DNA of 64,000 nucleotides from Octopus vulgaris (lineage: Eukaryota), in assembly GCA_951406725.2 (NCBI GenBank), contig OX597817.1:132308001-132372000 (forward strand). The letters run 5' to 3'. Position 1 is the first letter of the stretch. Every line of letters begins with the position of its first letter. Positions 5,802-59,023 of this stretch are shown one piece after another. A program made the position numbers and the translations under genes. The notes under the pieces are model-generated. The model worked only from the letters and a program-made list of their open reading frames with translations, was not told the DNA's origin and ran no database searches.

Positions 5802-5895
<94 letters not shown>

Positions 5896-9860: not shown

Positions 9861-10019
9861 GATTTATATATCTCTCTATATATATATATATGTGTATGTG
9901 TCTTAACAAACAATTAAAGATGGAGAAGAAAATGTGTTAAAAATTTAACAAGAATTTAATCTTTTAACACTTTTTCTTCCCTATCTTTAAAAAGAATTTA
10001 ACACACCTTATATTTATTG

Positions 10020-10405
10020 AGAGTTTACAAGAAAGAAAAAGAAAAGAAAAAGACGAAGACGGGTGTGTAAACAACAAAGAGATGTGTTAGTTTAACGTTC
10101 GGGAAGTGAGAAAGTCTTTTCCGTTTCGCGCCTACGCTCTTCAACAGAAGGGAAAGCAGAAAGAAACAGGGAGAGAATATAGAAAAAGGTATAGTGGCTA
10201 GCGATCGATCATTGCGACTCCTTTTTCTCTCTCCTTCTTTTCTCTCCTTGTTTCTCTCCTTATTTTTTTCTGTGTCCCTTTCTGTAGAAGAGCGTAGGCT
10301 CGAAACATAAAAGACTTTTTCTATTCCTGAGCGTTATACTAATACATCTGTTTGTTTTGTACACCACCTGTCTTCGTCTTTTGTTTTTTTCGTAAACTCT
10401 CCCTA
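10020..10405. mobile_element. Head-to-head inverted pair of family A PLE pLTRs
   Basis: 10020-10215 is the reverse complement of the family A pLTR and 10220-10405 is a + strand copy; HHR-like motifs at about 10113-10152 (-) and 10277-10315 (+). Confidence 0.75.
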
Positions 10406-10415
10406 TATATATATA

Positions 10416-23941: not shown

Positions 23942-24849
23942 AAGGTAGAAAATGCTAAAATAATTTTATCATAAAGAACATTTTACCACCTGTTTCAGTC
24001 TTTGCGACTTTTTCAACTTAGAGTAAAGCATGAAAAACAATTAAATTGTTGAAAAATTAAATGAAATGTTTTTAAAAGTATTTCCATAGTTTTCAAATAC
24101 AAGGGACATTTTCCTTTTTTCTGTCTGTCTGTCTCTCTCTCTCTCTCTTTACTATTGTGAAGGCTTGATATTAGCAGTAGGTAGCAACAGTCCTAAAAGA
24201 ATATATGATAGGAGTTCTTGGTTTTCATTGTTTAAGCAGCGGAAGAAGAAGAAGAAGAAGAAGAAGAAGAAGAAGAAGAAGAAGAAGAAGAAGAAGAAGA
24301 AGAAGAAGAGGTAGTAGGAAAAGAAGAGAAAGAATAATAAAAATACGGGTGGGGTATGGCAGTAGTAGGATGTTGGTGAAATTCTTAAACGGTCATGTGA
24401 CCCAAACGTGACTAAAAAAGGTCACATGACCGTTTAAGAGGATTCCACCAACATCCTACTACTGCCATACCACACCCGTATTTTTTATTATTCTTTCTTT
24501 TCTTTTCCTACTCCCTCTCCTCCTCCTCCTCCTTCTTCTTCTTCGGTTACTGCTGCGTGAACAATCAAAACCAAGAATTCATATCAAATATCCCTTTAGG
24601 ATTGCTACTACCTACCACCTACTACCAAGCCTTCACAAGAGTAAAAAAAAGAAAGAAAGAAAGAGAGAGAGAGAAAAGAATAATGTCCCTTGTATTTGAA
24701 AACTATGGAAATATTTTAAAAAGACATTTCATTTAATTTTCCCACAATTTAATTGTTTTTCATGCTTTACTCTAAGTTGAAAAGTCTCAAAGGCTGAAAC
24801 CAGTACTAAAATGGTCTTTATGATATAATTATTTTAGCAATTTCTACCT
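23942..24849. repeat. About 450-bp-arm fold-back inverted repeat (PLE pLTR pair, family F)
   Basis: 23942-24402 is the imperfect reverse complement of 24421-24849 around an 18-bp spacer; a third copy lies at about 56500-57095. Confidence 0.9.
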
Positions 24850-26111: not shown

Positions 26112-26314
26112 TAATCCAAACGGGAAAACAGAAAAAACAACAACACGTGTAACAATTAAAGTATTATTATTAGGCGCTCAGGAAAGAGGGAAGAAGGAGG
26201 GTATGACGTTTCGAGCGGAGCTCTTCGTCGGAAACATACGAGAAGGAAGAAAGAAAAATCCCGAGGTTGGCGAACAGAGGGAAAAAAAACGCGACTGGTT
26301 TTTACGAAGTAAAC
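26109..26314 (-). mobile_element. Solo PLE pLTR, family B, with HHR-like motif at 26201-26235
   Basis: Minus strand gtttCCGACGAAgagctccgctcGAAACGTCatac; closely matches 43857-44070; (TA)n on both sides. Confidence 0.8.
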
Positions 26315-26332
26315 ATATATATATATATATAT

Positions 26333-26661
26333 GAGAATTACTTGCATAGCAAGTGATTTGATCTGAGATCGTGTGCTGGAACGAAAACAATTGCAGCGTG
26401 GTAGGTGTTTGTAAGCCATTTAAGAAACACACAAAAGCCGTTCGATTCACTTCAACATTTAAGTTTAATTTGTCAAAATATTTTCGTCGCTATAAGACCG
26501 CGACCTGTTCACTGACAAAAATCGTGCTGCATCAGTGGACATGTCGCGGTCTTATAGCGACGAAAATATTTTGACAAATTAAACTTAAATGTTGAAGTGA
26601 ATCGAACGGCTTTTGTGTGTTTCTTAAATGGCTTACAAACACCTTCCATGCTGCATTTGTG
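26333..26661. mobile_element. Palindromic (fold-back) element, family E, in (TA)n
   Basis: About 125-bp near-perfect inverted arms; second copy at 58684-59023. Confidence 0.9.
26469..26519 (-). ncRNA. Minimal type I hammerhead with G3-C8 swapped core
   Basis: uuuguca GUGAACA g gucgc ggucuuaua gcgac GAAA AUAU UU ugacaaa: 7-bp stem I, 5-bp stem II, palindromic helix III. Confidence 0.7.
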
Positions 26662-26759
<98 letters not shown>

Positions 26760-37257: not shown

Positions 37258-37715
37258 GGATCTTTTCGGTTTGAACGACAGTTTTTTCTAGCGGTGTCAT
37301 ATGAAATTGTCACCCATAATTAAAACTCTAGTATCGATCTATTGCATTTCAATCTGTTTTAGGGTTAGGGTTAGTTAGGGTTAGTTAGGATTAGGGTTAG
37401 GGTTTGGGTTAGGGTTAGGGTTAGGGGTGGGGGGAAGGGTATATTTTTTTCTTCACAAATGTAAATAAACGCATTCTGAAACGAGGGACATATTCATACG
37501 GCACAGAATGTTTTTTTTTACCTCAATAGACGTCAGTGATTGGTTGAAATTCCAGAAATTGAAGAAAAAAAAATATCTTACAAACTATAGAATTTTCCCA
37601 ATAAAGCCAAGAGAAAAAGATGTTTTATAAACACATTCTACCAGTATACGAAGTTTAAAATTTGTTAGTTACCTAGAAATTATGTTAAAAACTGCCGTTC
37701 AAACCGAAAAGATCC
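37258..37715. mobile_element. MITE with 29-bp TIRs, 8-bp TSD and internal telomeric repeats (Merlin/MULE-like)
   Basis: TIR ggatcttttcggtttgaacg(a/g)cagttttt; TSD ttcgtttc at 37250-57 and 37716-23; (TTAGGG)-like array at about 37359-37425. Confidence 0.92.
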
Positions 37716-43856: not shown

Positions 43857-44845
43857 TTAATCCAAACGGGAAAACAAAAAAACAACAACAGTGGAACAAT
43901 TACAGTATTATTATTAATAGGCGCTCAGGAAATATGGAAGCAGGAAGGTATGACGTTTCGAGCGGAGCTCTTCGTCGGAAACATAAAGAAGGAAGAGAGA
44001 GGAAAGAAAGATCCCAAAGTGGGCAACAGGAGATGGAGAAAAAAACGACTGGTGTTTACGAAGTACACATGGTGAAAGGCGGAAGTTTACGATAACAAGA
44101 GCAAAGTAGGTTTTTAAAGCCAAAAGAGTGGAGACAGGGTTGGTAACGCAACAGATGTGTGTGTATGTGTGAGTGTGTGCGTGTGCGTGTGTGTATGTGT
44201 GTGTGAGGCGAGATAAAAAAACAAAAAATATATGTATGTGTTAGTGTGTGCGTCTGTGTGTAGGCGTGTCAGGTAGGGCGAACAGTAGTAGGCAACAGAC
44301 AAGTGGTCAGTAGTAAGAAAATGAAGGAAGGAGGAAGGGAGGGAGGGGAAGGGGTGGGGGCGTATGTAACGTGCCAGCGTGTGTTGAGTAGTAGTGTGTG
44401 TGTGTCCAGTGTCGTGGTAGTATTAATGGCGAGTAGATTTGAATGTGTGTAAGAGTAATGTATATATTTAAGCAATGTGTATATGTGAGTGGGTGTATGT
44501 ATGTGTGCGTGTGTGTGTAACAAAAAAGGGGGGTTAAGGAAAAAGGACTCCAGCTGAGGGGAAGATGGAAGAGTGGTCCCGCGGAGACGGGCGTGGGAGA
44601 ACCCAACGACAGGCGACGGTCCCAGGAACGAGGGGGAGGTCTCGTCGGGTCCAAGAGCGAGGTGCATGCAGCGCGTATGCGTGCGCGAACCGGCGCAAGC
44701 GCGTGTGAGCGCGCCTGCGAGTGTGCGCGTAAGTATGTATGTGTGTGGATGTGTGAGTGTGTCTGTGTGTATGTCTGGGTGTCAGTGTGTCCGATGAATG
44801 TATGTGAGTATGTGTGTATATATGTGTGTGCATAGATGTATGTCC

Positions 44846-44876
<31 letters not shown>

Positions 44877-47274
44877 AGTGTGTATGTATGTACGTGTGGG
44901 TGTGTGGAAGTGTGTGTATGTGCATGTGTGTGCGCGTACATACAGGTGTGTGAGTGAGTGTGTGTGTGTGTATGTATGTGTGAGTGTGTATGTATGTGTG
45001 TGTAGGATGCATGTATGTGTATGGGTGTATGTATGTGTGTGTGTATGTATGTATGTGTACGTGCGTGTGTGTGTGTGTATGCGTGTAGGTGTGCGCGTGT
45101 GCATGCATGCATGCATGTGCGTATGTGTGTGTGTGTGCATGTGTGTGGGTATAAATGTGTGTGCGTATATGTGTGTGTATGTGCGTACATGTGTGTGTGT
45201 GTATACATGTGTGTGTATGTAGGTGTGTAGGCGTGTGTGTATAGGTGTATGTATGTAAGTATGTATGGGTGTGTCCGTGTATGTGTGTGTATGTATGTGT
45301 GTGTAGGTGTGTGGGCGTGTGTATATAGGTGTATGTATGTCTGGGTGTGTCCGTGCATGTTTGTGTGTGTGTGTGTGTATGCATGTGTATGTAGGTGTGT
45401 GTGTACGTGTGTAATGTATGTGTGTATGCGTGTGTGTGCGTGTGTATGCGTGCGTGTGTGTATGTAGGTGCGTATGTATGTGTGTGGGAGTGTAGGTGTG
45501 TGTGTGCGTGTGCGTGTTTATGTTGGTGTGTGCGTATGTGAGTGTGAGTGTATGGGTGTTTGTCATGCATGTGTGTGCGCGTGCAGGCGAGTGTGTGTGT
45601 AAGTATGTGTGTGTGTATGTTTGTGTGAGTGTGTATGTGTGTATGTCTGTGTGTGTGTATGTGCGTATAGGAGTATGTAGGTATGTGTGTGTGTATGTGT
45701 ATGGGTGTATGTATGTATGTGTGTGTGTATGTGTGCATGTGTATAAGTATATGTGTGTGTGCGTATGTGTGTGTATGTGTATGTGTGTGTGTTTATGTAT
45801 GTGTGTATGTATGTGTGTAGGCGTGTGTGTGTAGATGTGTGTGCGTATGTGTGTGTCTGTATGTGTATGTGTGTGTGTGTAGGTAGGTAGGTGTGTGTGT
45901 CTGAGTGAGGGTATGGCTGTGTAGGTGTGTGTGTGTATGAATGTAAGTGTGTGTGTACAAGTGTAATGTATGTATGTAGGTGTGTGTGTGTGTGTATGTG
46001 TACGTGTGCGTGTGTATGTGTGTGTGTGTATGCGTGTGAGTGTGAGTGTATGGGTGTATGTCTGTGTGTGTGTATGTCTGAAGTAGGTATGTGTGTGTAT
46101 GTATGTATGTGTGTGTGTGCGGGTATGTGTGTGTGTGTGTATGTGTGTGTGTGAGTAGGTGTGCGTGTATGTATGTGGGTAGGGATGCATGCGAGTGTGT
46201 GGGTATGTATGCATACATACGCACGCGCACATCCGAAGCAAGCCCACACACACGAAGCGCGCTCACGCACACAACACACAAGCAATACAACGCAAGCCCA
46301 TGGGGCCGACCAAGCCCCAGCGCGCGCCAAGGCGCGCGAGCGCAAAGGCCCTCGAACGACCCGCTACGCGGGAACCGAGGATCCATCAGCCAAAACCGGA
46401 AAGCAGAAAAGAGGGGGGGCTGCCTGGATGCAAAAAGGTGTATGTGTGTGTGCATTCAGTGTAAGGGTGTGCATGTGTGGGTATGTATGTATGTGTGCAC
46501 GTGTGGTGTGTGTGTGTACGTGCGGTGTGTGTGTGTGAGTGTGTGTGTATGTATGTGCGTATGTATGTGTGTATGTATGTGTGTATGTATGTCTGTGTGT
46601 GTATGTGTGTGTGTGTAAGTATGTATGTGTGTGTTTGTAGGGTGAAGATGTAGCGTTGCTCCAAGTGGAGCCTGGAAAGTGGGCGACCATTGTGGGGAGC
46701 GAGACCAAACACTGAGATGTCATCTAGGGAATGGCCGGCCGAGCGGAAGTGGCGTGCGACGGGAGAAAAAGAGTGTAGGCGAACGTCCCTCAAATGTTCT
46801 GTGAATCGGTCGGACAACCGGCGTCCCGTCTGTCCTACATACAGCATCCCGCATAGGTTGCATTTAATGCAGTAAATAAGGCCAGACGAGGTGCACGTAA
46901 AAGAGTGCCTAATGCGTACAGTATGCTGGTTGGAGCCGGTGACAGCGGTGGTGTTGGTGATGAAGGGGCAAGTGTTGCAGCGGGATCTAGAGCAAGGGAA
47001 TGATCCGTGTGGGGCTGAGGGGGAAGGAGAGAGGGTGCTGTGGACCAGGAGGTCACGCAGATTGCGGGCTCGTTTGAAGGAGGACAGGGGTGGGTTTGGG
47101 AAAATGGGGCGGGTGGTGGGATCAAGCTGGAGGCGACGGAAGGCACGTAGTATCTTGCGACGAAGGGGTAGGGTAGAGGGGTGGAAAAGGAGGGGGAAGG
47201 GGGTGCGGTTGGGGGGTGGGCGGGGGAAGGAGACAGGGCGGTGGTGCGGTCGATGCGACGGCGCGGGTGAGGGC
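43857..47274 (-). mobile_element. 5'-truncated Penelope-like retroelement (Neptune-type): GIY-YIG, long (CA)-rich 3' region, family B pLTR with HHR (43948-43982)
   Basis: Co-oriented endonuclease, UTR and pLTR ending at (TA)n. Confidence 0.8.
46633..47274 (-). CDS. PLE GIY-YIG endonuclease domain with upstream Cys linker (partial ORF)
   Basis: SFKRARNLRDLLVHS, FPCSRSRCNTCPFI, FTCTSSGLIYCIKCNLCGMLYVGQTGRRLSDRFTEHL, SPVARHF...H, EQRYIFTL. Confidence 0.93.
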
Positions 47275-58683: not shown

Positions 58684-59019
58684 GGAGATGTACTCGCATA
58701 GCAAGTGATTTGATCTGAGATCGTGTGCTGAAACGAAAACAATTGCAGCGTGGAAGGTGTTTGTAAGCCATTTAAGAAACACACAAAAGTCGTTCGATTC
58801 ACTTCAACATTTAAGTTTAATTTGTCAAAATATTTTCGTCGCTAAAATCCTCGACCTGTTCACTGATAAAAATCCGTGCAGCACGGATTTTTGTCAGTGA
58901 ACAGGTCGCGGTCTTATAGCGACGAAAATATTTTGACAAATTAAACTTAAATGTTGAAGTGAATCGAACGCTTTTGTGTGTTTCTTAAATGGCTTACAAA
59001 CACCTTCCACGCTGCAATT

Positions 59020-59023
<4 letters not shown>
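58684..59023. mobile_element. Palindromic element, family E, second copy; intact G3-C8 HHR-like motif at 58890-58940 (+)
   Basis: Near-perfect palindrome centred on aaaaatccgtgc-a-gcacggattttt. Confidence 0.9.

What the first reader, a model, noticed from the sequence alone, without database searches (positions are those of the whole stretch)
26333..26661. Palindromic (TA)n-embedded element carrying a hammerhead ribozyme with a swapped G3-C8 catalytic core
Seen: the minus strand of 26469-26519, and identically the + strand of 58890-58940, reads UUUGUCA-GUGAACA-G-GUCGC-ggucuuaua-GCGAC-GAAA-AUAU-UU-UGACAAA. This gives a 7-bp stem I, a 5-bp stem II opened by G-C, GAAA, and a 1-bp helix III capped by the palindrome AUAU. 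Established: this is the architecture of minimal type I hammerheads in Penelope-like elements, and C3 and G8 form a tertiary Watson-Crick pair whose reciprocal swap can rescue cleavage. Here CUGANGA has become GUGAACA, so both C3 and G8 changed compensatorily while U4, G5, A6 and A9 are kept. Inference: a naturally selected variant ribozyme family that CUGANGA-based searches would miss, carried by a non-coding fold-back element. The predicted cleavage triplet (UUU) is a weak one.
Basis: partly seen in the sequence, partly recalled or inferred. Interest (0 to 1): 0.9.

Follow-up and report, generated by a model that had tools for sequence, protein, structure and literature searches.

The report
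Swapped-core hammerhead in active animal retrotransposon
This fold-back repeat is the end piece of a recently active Penelope-like jumping gene, and thousands of its copies carry a hammerhead-type RNA with two paired core letters swapped (G3-C8 instead of C3-G8); it likely still cuts itself weakly, but cutting has not been tested.

Summary
The motif is real and family-wide. The 329-bp palindrome is not a separate non-coding element: it is the pseudo-LTR plus tail of an endonuclease-bearing, Neptune/Nematis-type Penelope-like element (PLE), joined to an inverted copy. Longer copies lead into an RT + GIY-YIG frame. The motif sits at the usual PLE hammerhead site, 57 nt before the ATG. G3-C8 is found in 5,747 of 6,272 pattern-matched arms. 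Sister families have C3-G8 or U3-A8 at the same site, with compensatory stem changes, so G3-C8 is a derived double change. Published mutagenesis shows this swap partly rescues cleavage, also in a PLE hammerhead. Against tight selection: relatives carry G3·G8, U3·G8, C3·A8 and A9C cores, and the swap is a single event. Inside the palindrome the ribozyme fold is predicted to be masked, and most copies begin upstream of the uncut motif. I found no natural G3-C8 hammerhead in the papers searched; one key paper was unavailable. This scan noted G3-C8 before on other DNA (microbial-eukaryote PLEs, phages; unchecked). Verdict: new variant of a known kind; activity unshown.

The parts
26333..26661 (.). 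Whole insertion: pseudo-LTR + tail (minus strand) joined head-to-head to an inverted shorter pseudo-LTR (plus strand) of a Neptune/Nematis-type PLE ('family A')
   Evidence: same arms end the RT/GIY-YIG elements in L031, L051-L060
26333..26533 (-). Long arm: pseudo-LTR with hammerhead, ORF start and tail
   Evidence: matches L053:5716-5925 positions 6-205, which runs on into the ORF in L053
26469..26519 (-). Minimal type I hammerhead homologue: stem I 26519-26513/26475-26469; G3=26512, C8=26507, A9=26506, extra G=26505, G10.1=26504, GAAA 26485-26482; predicted cut between 26476 (U17) and 26475
   Evidence: numbering inferred from the published min-HHR layout
26333..26419 (-). ATG (26419-26417) and about 29 first codons of the PLE ORF; ATG lies 57 nt after the predicted cut
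   Evidence: homologous to L053 ATG at 5834, MAYKHLPR...
26333..26386 (-). One-sided PLE 'tail' (54 bp here, about 58 in other copies) between the two preferred 3' ends
   Evidence: arm ends cluster at reference 145-159 (48) and 200-210 (60) of 112 arms; tail explained by two RT start sites in PMC11167929
26516..26531 (.). Fold-back junction just upstream of the hammerhead, at the common 5' boundary of short copies
   Evidence: 54 of 59 arms begin within 32 nt upstream of G3
26532..26661 (+). Short inverted arm without tail; its hammerhead copy (26532-26578) is damaged (A6G, extra base U, stem I 3 bp)
26313..26332 (.). (TA)n target, left flank
   Evidence: 21 of 30 elements lie in simple-repeat or TA-rich sites
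26662..26683 (.). (TA)n target, right flank
58685..59020 (.). Second family A insertion in the window, 92% identical; long arm on minus, short arm on plus
58890..58940 (+). Intact G3-C8 motif of the second copy (G3=58897, C8=58902, U17=58933)

Best explanation
The insertion is a head-to-head pseudo-LTR pair of a recently active Penelope-like retrotransposon, and the motif is that element's pseudo-LTR hammerhead with a lineage-wide G3-C8 core that likely still cleaves slowly, as a dimer or with help from the element's protein. Shown: PLE anatomy, position of the motif, family-wide G3-C8, homology to C3-G8 and U3-A8 hammerheads in sister elements. Inferred: the RT/GIY-YIG protein nicks AT-rich DNA, starts reverse transcription at one of two sites inside the ORF start, and runs off the RNA 5' end about 20-25 nt upstream of the hammerhead; a fold-back or template switch there makes the inverted arm. 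The templates of these short copies were therefore uncut. Inferred: any cleavage happens in head-to-tail transcripts of the full element, through an intermolecular AAUAUU helix III, and is not required for copying; in the palindromic copies the complementary arm masks the fold.
For: [quoted passage not shown] Family state: 5,747 G3-C8, 349 G3/non-C8, 176 non-G3; all other core positions at least 113 of 118 held arms. Homology: sister family B (RT/EN tree, SH-aLRT 100, quick tree) has C3 in 19 of 23 aligned arms and G8 in 100 of 100 listed; family C has C3 in 31 and G8 in 36 of 39 arms, G3-C8 in 0; metagenome relatives L131 (C3-G8) and L132 (U3-A8) carry the motif at the same place. On 10 hand-picked representatives 9 of 12 pairs change on both sides, stem II 100% paired, 0 of 500 shuffles as high, slid controls at most 4 such cells against 17. 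Literature: extra base, G10.1-C11.1 and palindromic loop III are min-HHR marks; C3G/G8C partly restores cleavage of a PLE hammerhead, which is protein-assisted and dispensable for insertion in vitro; it is the only rescuing double mutant in the CUGA turn.
Against: No cleavage or RNA-end data: only contigs were available. The swap is one event on one branch; 5,747 copies are descent, not independent support. The 3/8 pair is not always Watson-Crick in this lineage: about 140 family A arms are G3·G8 (41 of the first 100 listed of 349), some 7 times the reciprocal G3-to-C change and scattered over the tree; old family F shows U3·G8 in 9, C3·A8 in 6 and C3-G8 in only 2 of 20; 89 of the first 100 family B matches have C9 for A9, including two copies with intact 1,312-aa frames. 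Helix III is only A-U pairs and lies in a 10-nt palindrome (AAAAUAUUUU) that could pair U17 away; the predicted best dimer is not the active arrangement. No intermediate C3-G8 copy of family A was seen (0 of the first 100 of 176). The 10 rows were chosen by me and are related; L131 is misaligned in its 3' part.
Confidence: 0.6

Rival explanations
1. The motif is a catalytically dead descendant of the PLE hammerhead. Stems I and II, UGA and GAAA are kept as a structure for protein binding, RNA 5' end handling or promoter function, and positions 3, 8 and 9 drift; G3-C8 is complementary by chance.
For: G3·G8 in family A, U3·G8 and C3·A8 in family F (U3 goes with G8 and C3 with A8, Fisher p 0.005 on 16 copies), A9C in the most intact sister family and C9 again in L132. 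Short copies start upstream of the uncut motif. Hammerhead mutants do not affect insertion in vitro.
Against: Every amplified, young or outgroup core examined except old family F has a Watson-Crick 3-8 pair of three different kinds (C-G, U-A, G-C). The catalytic-box letters U4, G5, A6, G12, A13, A14, A15.1 are invariant over 10 representatives whose RTs are about 45-55% identical where known. The lab-made swap is active.
Confidence: 0.32
2. The 329-bp palindrome is a self-standing non-coding mobile element (MITE- or retrozyme-like) whose ribozyme acts within the palindromic RNA.
For: Most copies are short fold-backs of nearly fixed size; non-autonomous PLE derivatives exist. Short copies may be remobilised in trans.
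Against: Arms continue into a 3' UTR and RT/EN frame in longer copies; ends are asymmetric with a PLE tail and variable 11-16 bp duplications, not a transposase signature; the 140-bp hairpin (-214 to -235 kcal/mol) gives the hammerhead pairs probability 0.0 on both strands of both window copies; no head-to-tail monomer arrays were seen in the loci fetched.
Confidence: 0.06
3. The hammerhead likeness is a chance fold in a repeat.
For: Rfam gives no hammerhead match even at E 10; a loose descriptor finds 3-10 hits in shuffled sequence of the same size.
Against: Same position before the ATG as canonical hammerheads in related PLEs, shared stem sequences, compensatory changes.
Confidence: 0.02

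Closest known systems
Minimal type I hammerheads (min-HHR) in pseudo-LTRs of metazoan PLEs (Cervera and de la Pena 2014, PMC4209133)
   Same: Type I layout, extra base between 9 and 10.1, G10.1-C11.1, palindromic short helix III, U17, location in the pseudo-LTR, opposite-strand pairs, thousands of solo copies.
   Different: Core is GUGAACA. Of their 56 representatives 53 are C3-G8, 2 U3-A8, 1 U3·G8, none G3-C8; their descriptor could not have found it. The extra base is G (consensus H; G in 1 of 56).
Hammerhead of the Poseidon element PAc of Anolis (Frangieh et al. 2024, PMC11167929)
   Same: Hammerhead next to the ORF start; two RT start sites inside the ORF start that define the tail; AT-rich targets; the engineered C3G/G8C mutant is the state fixed here.
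   Different: PAc is Penelope/Poseidon clade and wild-type C3-G8; its ATG lies in stem II, whereas here it is 57 nt after the cut site; tail about 58 nt rather than 30-40.
Neptune/Nematis-type EN+ PLEs (Craig et al. 2021, PMC8557442; Arkhipova et al. 2013, PMC3846280)
   Same: Single ORF, RT then CX2-5CxxC linker then GIY-YIG; inverted 5'-truncated copies, one-sided tail, palindromic junction, short target duplications, microsatellite targets.
   Different: Clade not fixed by a tree with named references; about 1 kb microsatellite-rich 3' UTR; variant hammerhead core.
Natural U3-A8 hammerheads (Perreault et al. 2011, PMC3088659; Cercyon elements of Schistosoma)
   Same: Natural covariation of the 3-8 tertiary pair.
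   Different: U3-A8 needs two transitions and keeps pyrimidine-purine order; G3-C8 needs two transversions and reverses it.

Membership tests
EN+ Penelope-like element | One ORF with RT and C-terminal GIY-YIG endonuclease | tested here: met
   L051: 999 stop-free codons with DKSG, YVDD and YIGET motifs; PF01541 above cut-off; RVT_1 only weak in relatives. Met for the family, not inside the window copy; no fully intact family A copy was seen.
EN+ Penelope-like element | Pseudo-LTR that includes the ORF start, in direct or inverted arrangement, with one-sided tail | tested here: met
   L053 head-to-tail junction; 28 of 30 elements have one long and one short arm, 2 have two long arms
EN+ Penelope-like element | Short variable target-site duplication | tested here: met
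   11-16 bp in 9 of 9 elements outside simple repeats; not readable in the other 21 of 30, including both window copies
Neptune/Nematis clades | CX2-5CxxC linker before GIY-YIG | tested here: met
   C-QSN-C-AV-C in L031 and L051; definition
Neptune/Nematis clades | Placement in an RT tree with named Neptune, Nematis and Poseidon references | not tested
   The tree holds only unnamed relatives
Minimal type I PLE hammerhead | Stems I and II round the core, G10.1-C11.1, GAAA, A15.1-U16.1, H17 | tested here: met
Minimal type I PLE hammerhead | Extra base between 9 and 10.1 and palindromic helix III | tested here: met
   G in 117 of 118 arms; AAUAUU palindrome; features
Minimal type I PLE hammerhead | Literal CUGANGA box | tested here: not met
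   GUGAACA; C3+G8 in 0 of the first 100 of 176 non-G3 arms
Minimal type I PLE hammerhead | Watson-Crick pair between positions 3 and 8 | tested here: met
   G-C in 5,747 of 6,272 arms; pairing itself is inferred from complementarity and covariation
Minimal type I PLE hammerhead | Self-cleavage after position 17 | not testable with these tools
   No assay; no raw RNA reads were offered
Rfam hammerhead families | Match at gathering score | tested here: not met
   no hammerhead row among the 150 shown of 242 for L053, L122, L131, L100 either, although three of those hold C3-G8 cores, so the test has little power for minimal forms
Non-LTR retrozyme | Head-to-tail tandem monomers each with a hammerhead | tested here: not met
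   Window copies and fetched short copies are head-to-head or solo; definition

The most novel reading that the evidence does not exclude
A working natural G3-C8 hammerhead has been fixed in an active animal retrotransposon with thousands of copies. In this PLE lineage the catalytic 3-8 pair flips between C-G, U-A and G-C, so a whole class of G3-C8 minimal hammerheads in eukaryotic PLEs is invisible to current descriptors, and the lineage is a ready-made allelic series for asking whether PLE hammerhead cleavage matters.
Probability: 0.45. Interest if true: 0.62.

Novelty: new variant of a known kind. Interest (0 to 1): 0.5.

Why it matters
The 3-8 pair positions the general acid of the hammerhead; its G-C swap is a standard laboratory rescue experiment, and I found no report of it in nature. 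A natural, high-copy case would widen the descriptors used to count ribozymes in genomes. The role of PLE hammerheads is an open question. One genome here offers recently amplified sister elements with G3-C8, C3-G8 and A9C cores, plus G3·G8, U3·G8 and C3·A8 copies. Assaying them side by side would tell whether cleavage is conserved or only the fold.

Tried and rejected
Rfam: nothing at gathering score in the window, no hammerhead at E 10 on the motif; the wide search was swamped by microsatellite-like miRNA models. RNA evidence: no RNA holder listed on record; 20 of 24 runs from 8 studies and 4 coded organisms hold part of the stretch, all as contigs; four were laid and show presence only, no starts or ends, and no listed difference at positions 3 or 8, but 46 rows were not shown. 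'Family C is a G3·G8 family' (from window 42998) was rejected: G3 in 4 of 39 arms. 'G3·G8 is the ancestral intermediate clade' was not supported: such arms fall in five loop types and all over a weakly resolved tree of 82 arms, and 0 of the first 100 of 1,620 older-loop matches have G8; the most diverged copy L067 is G3·G8, so it is not excluded. 'An A3-U8 sub-lineage' was rejected: four such arms have four different loop types. Palindromes centred on helix III: 0 in the held, hammerhead-biased loci. Of 11 metagenome loci 2 gave a clear motif by script (L131, L132), 1 by eye with a 2-bp stem I (L133), 1 degenerate (L135, G5 missing), 7 none, several for lack of flank. The protein tree is the quick one; the careful search did not finish. 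Lünse et al. 2017 (PMC5785218) is not held and was not read; its alignments and supplements could already hold G3-C8 variants. Przybilski and Hammann 2007 was not read (recalled only).

Full report
OBSERVATION. The motif UUUGUCA GUGAACA G GUCGC ggucuuaua GCGAC GAAA AUAU UU UGACAAA lies at 26469-26519 (-) and 58890-58940 (+). A third, damaged copy lies on the + arm at 26532-26578. The 23-mer core occurs 3 times in the window and 0 times in 100 shuffles. Stems I and II are the predicted fold. The insertion has 129-bp arms, a 16-nt centre and a 54-bp extension on one side, between (TA)n tracts. Rfam has no match.

WHAT THE ELEMENT IS. The window lies in a 2.8-Gb genome; the closest protein to the element's frame is labelled Octopus vulgaris by its source, which suggests an octopus host. 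The repeat gave 2,071 first-look candidates; the best full-length match of each of the 40 scored places was 95-100% identical. In 30 elements (28 fetched, 2 in the window) 28 have one long and one short arm and 2 have two long arms; 9 of 9 outside simple repeats have 11-16 bp target duplications. Longer copies show that the arm is the 3' end of an autonomous element: L031 and L051-L060 have a frame ending in a GIY-YIG domain, about 1 kb of microsatellite-rich 3' UTR, then the arm. L051 has 999 stop-free codons with RT motifs, a C-x3-C-x2-C linker and GIY-YIG. L053 has a head-to-tail junction in which the arm runs into the ORF start, the ATG lying 57 nt after U17. Many endonuclease copies score identically, which points to recent activity; I saw no fully intact copy. 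These are the marks of an EN+ PLE of the Neptune/Nematis type: pseudo-LTR holding the ORF start, inverted 5' copy, one-sided tail, palindromic junction (PMC8557442, passages; PMC3846280, passages).

THE CORE IS THE FAMILY STATE. With the same flanks, exact patterns give 5,747 G3-C8 arms, 349 G3/non-C8 and 176 non-G3; reversed-pattern controls 0: 91.6% of 6,272. Each insertion usually has two arms, so this is a few thousand insertions, and a lower bound. None of the first 100 listed non-G3 arms is C3-G8. An older-looking loop class (1,620 matches) is also G3-C8 in nearly all of the first 100. In 118 held arms every core position has its commonest letter in at least 112.

IT IS A HAMMERHEAD HOMOLOGUE AND THE SWAP IS DERIVED. 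Family B, sister to family A in the RT/EN tree (SH-aLRT 100, quick tree of 33 rows), has at the same place before its ATG the motif CCA CUGAUGA G GUCACA gaag UGUGAC GAAA GAAC UC UGG in older copies (L108). Family C has C3 in 31 and G8 in 36 of 39 arms and never G3-C8 (counted by hand). Two metagenome relatives at 45-46% RT identity carry it behind the stop codon: L131 with C3-G8 and L132 with U3-A8; L133 (32%) has a U3-A8 form with a 2-bp stem I, read by eye. Over 10 representatives that I chose, 9 of 12 pairs change on both sides, stem II is fully paired, and U4, G5, A6, the extra G, G10.1, C11.1 and GAAA are invariant; the rows are related, so the shuffle control is not a probability. Parsimony puts C3-G8 in the ancestor of A and B, with both changes on the A branch (inference).

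WHAT IS KNOWN. Cervera and de la Pena 2014 (PMC4209133; I read parts 1-2 of 4 and parts 1-2 of 3 of the supplementary PDF) define these minimal hammerheads, with the extra base, G10.1-C11.1 and palindromic helix III, low activity and a need for dimers; of 56 representatives none is G3-C8, two are U3-A8, one U3·G8. Perreault 2011 (PMC3088659, passages) reports natural U3-A8. Frangieh 2024 (PMC11167929, parts 1-2 of 4) shows in a PLE hammerhead that C3G or G8C abolishes and C3G/G8C partly restores cleavage, that cleavage needs the element's protein, that it is not needed for insertion in vitro, and that the tail lies between two RT start sites. Roberts 2023 (PMC9901934, passages) finds the G:C swap to be the only rescuing double mutant in that turn. 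PMC3884650 (passages) mentions an engineered G3-C8 variant only. I also saw passages of PMC6765202 and PMC7151607 and part 1 of 5 of bioRxiv 10.64898/2026.07.22.740005. Searches for a natural G3-C8 case found none; Lünse 2017 was not available, and its data may bear on novelty. Earlier notes of this scan describe G3-C8 cores with an extra base in PLEs of microbial eukaryotes and G3-C8 cores in phages (not checked here); none for this genome.

RESULTS AGAINST TIGHT SELECTION. Of the first 100 listed non-C8 arms 41 have G8, 41 U8 and 18 A8; of the first 100 non-G3 arms 62 have A3, 27 U3 and 11 C3 (hand counts). C8-to-G is thus about 7 times commoner than G3-to-C. These G3·G8 arms are scattered over loop types and the tree; both arms carry it in L061, L120 and L154, one arm only in L006, L008, L141 and L151. 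Copying of G3·G8 templates or a mutation hot spot could explain this; I could not separate them. In family B 89 of the first 100 matches have C9, and the two intact 1,312-aa copies I opened have it; L132 has C9 too. An old family F with the same stems as A shows, in 20 matches not selected for 3 or 8, 9 U3·G8, 6 C3·A8, 2 C3-G8, 3 others and no C8. So the lineage keeps the fold more strictly than the textbook core.

HOW IT MOST LIKELY WORKS. Shown: arms end at two positions about 58 nt apart inside the ORF start (108 of 112 arms), and 54 of 59 arms picked only by the hammerhead pattern begin within 32 nt upstream of G3, many at -18 to -27 directly against unique flank (copies starting at the cut site are excluded by this selection). 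Inferred: reverse transcription starts at the two internal sites and runs off an RNA 5' end just upstream of the hammerhead, so these templates were uncut; fold-back or template switching at the TGCAGCA quasi-palindrome makes the inverted arm. A transcript through a palindromic copy makes the antisense arm first and is predicted to form a hairpin of -214 to -235 kcal/mol with hammerhead pair probability 0.0. Cleavage, if any, would occur in head-to-tail transcripts of the full element through an intermolecular AAUAUU helix III, probably aided by the protein. I put residual cleavage at about 0.6 and a dead but structurally kept motif at about 0.3.

VERDICT. Observation confirmed; interpretation partly supported. 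A PLE pseudo-LTR fragment is ordinary. A lineage-wide natural G3-C8 core is a variant I did not find in print, noted elsewhere by this scan, and easy to test. New variant of a known kind; interest 0.5.

Noticed in passing
window 26189-26243 (-) and 43936-43990 (-): A different PLE-type minimal hammerhead (GUUU CCGACGA A GAGC ucc GCUC GAAA CGUC) with C4 in both window copies; other held copies have U4 (6 against 3).
   Followed up: partly
window 42998 (+): Family C hammerhead with G3·G8; most family C copies have C3-G8.
   Followed up: yes
L121, L122 (G000 C5, C17): Sister family B: 4,084 pattern matches, 89 of the first 100 with A9C; 10 listed copies have stop-free frames of 1,310-1,312 aa. 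An actively amplified PLE with a changed conserved core base; C9 recurs in L132.
   Followed up: partly
L181-L200: Old family F with the same stems I and II as family A, but U3·G8 or C3·A8 cores; the two wobble-type states go with weakly supported subgroups.
   Followed up: partly
window 58685-59020; L002, L006, L008, L015-L017, L024, L025, L027, L028: In 11 of 30 elements the two arms carry different loop II types, so they cannot be copies of one cDNA; two templates were used or one arm was converted. The query had this arrangement, which biases the share.
   Followed up: partly
L034 719-911: Three tandem repeats of a 64-bp piece of the fold-back junction, suggesting repeated template jumps at the RNA 5' end.
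   Followed up: no
L037 3809-3872 (-): A further canonical minimal hammerhead family (CUGAUGA A GGCUGG ... UCAGCC GAAA CGUU), 3 hits in held loci.
   Followed up: no
window 23943-24849 and 10009-10411: Other long self-inverted repeats (79% over 947 bp; 72% over 423 bp), possibly older PLE fold-backs.
   Followed up: no
window 46791-47072 (-): Weak protein match to the PLE linker/endonuclease region (31%, E 2e-4).
   Followed up: no
window 37359-37426: Interstitial TTAGGG-like array of about 12 units.
   Followed up: no
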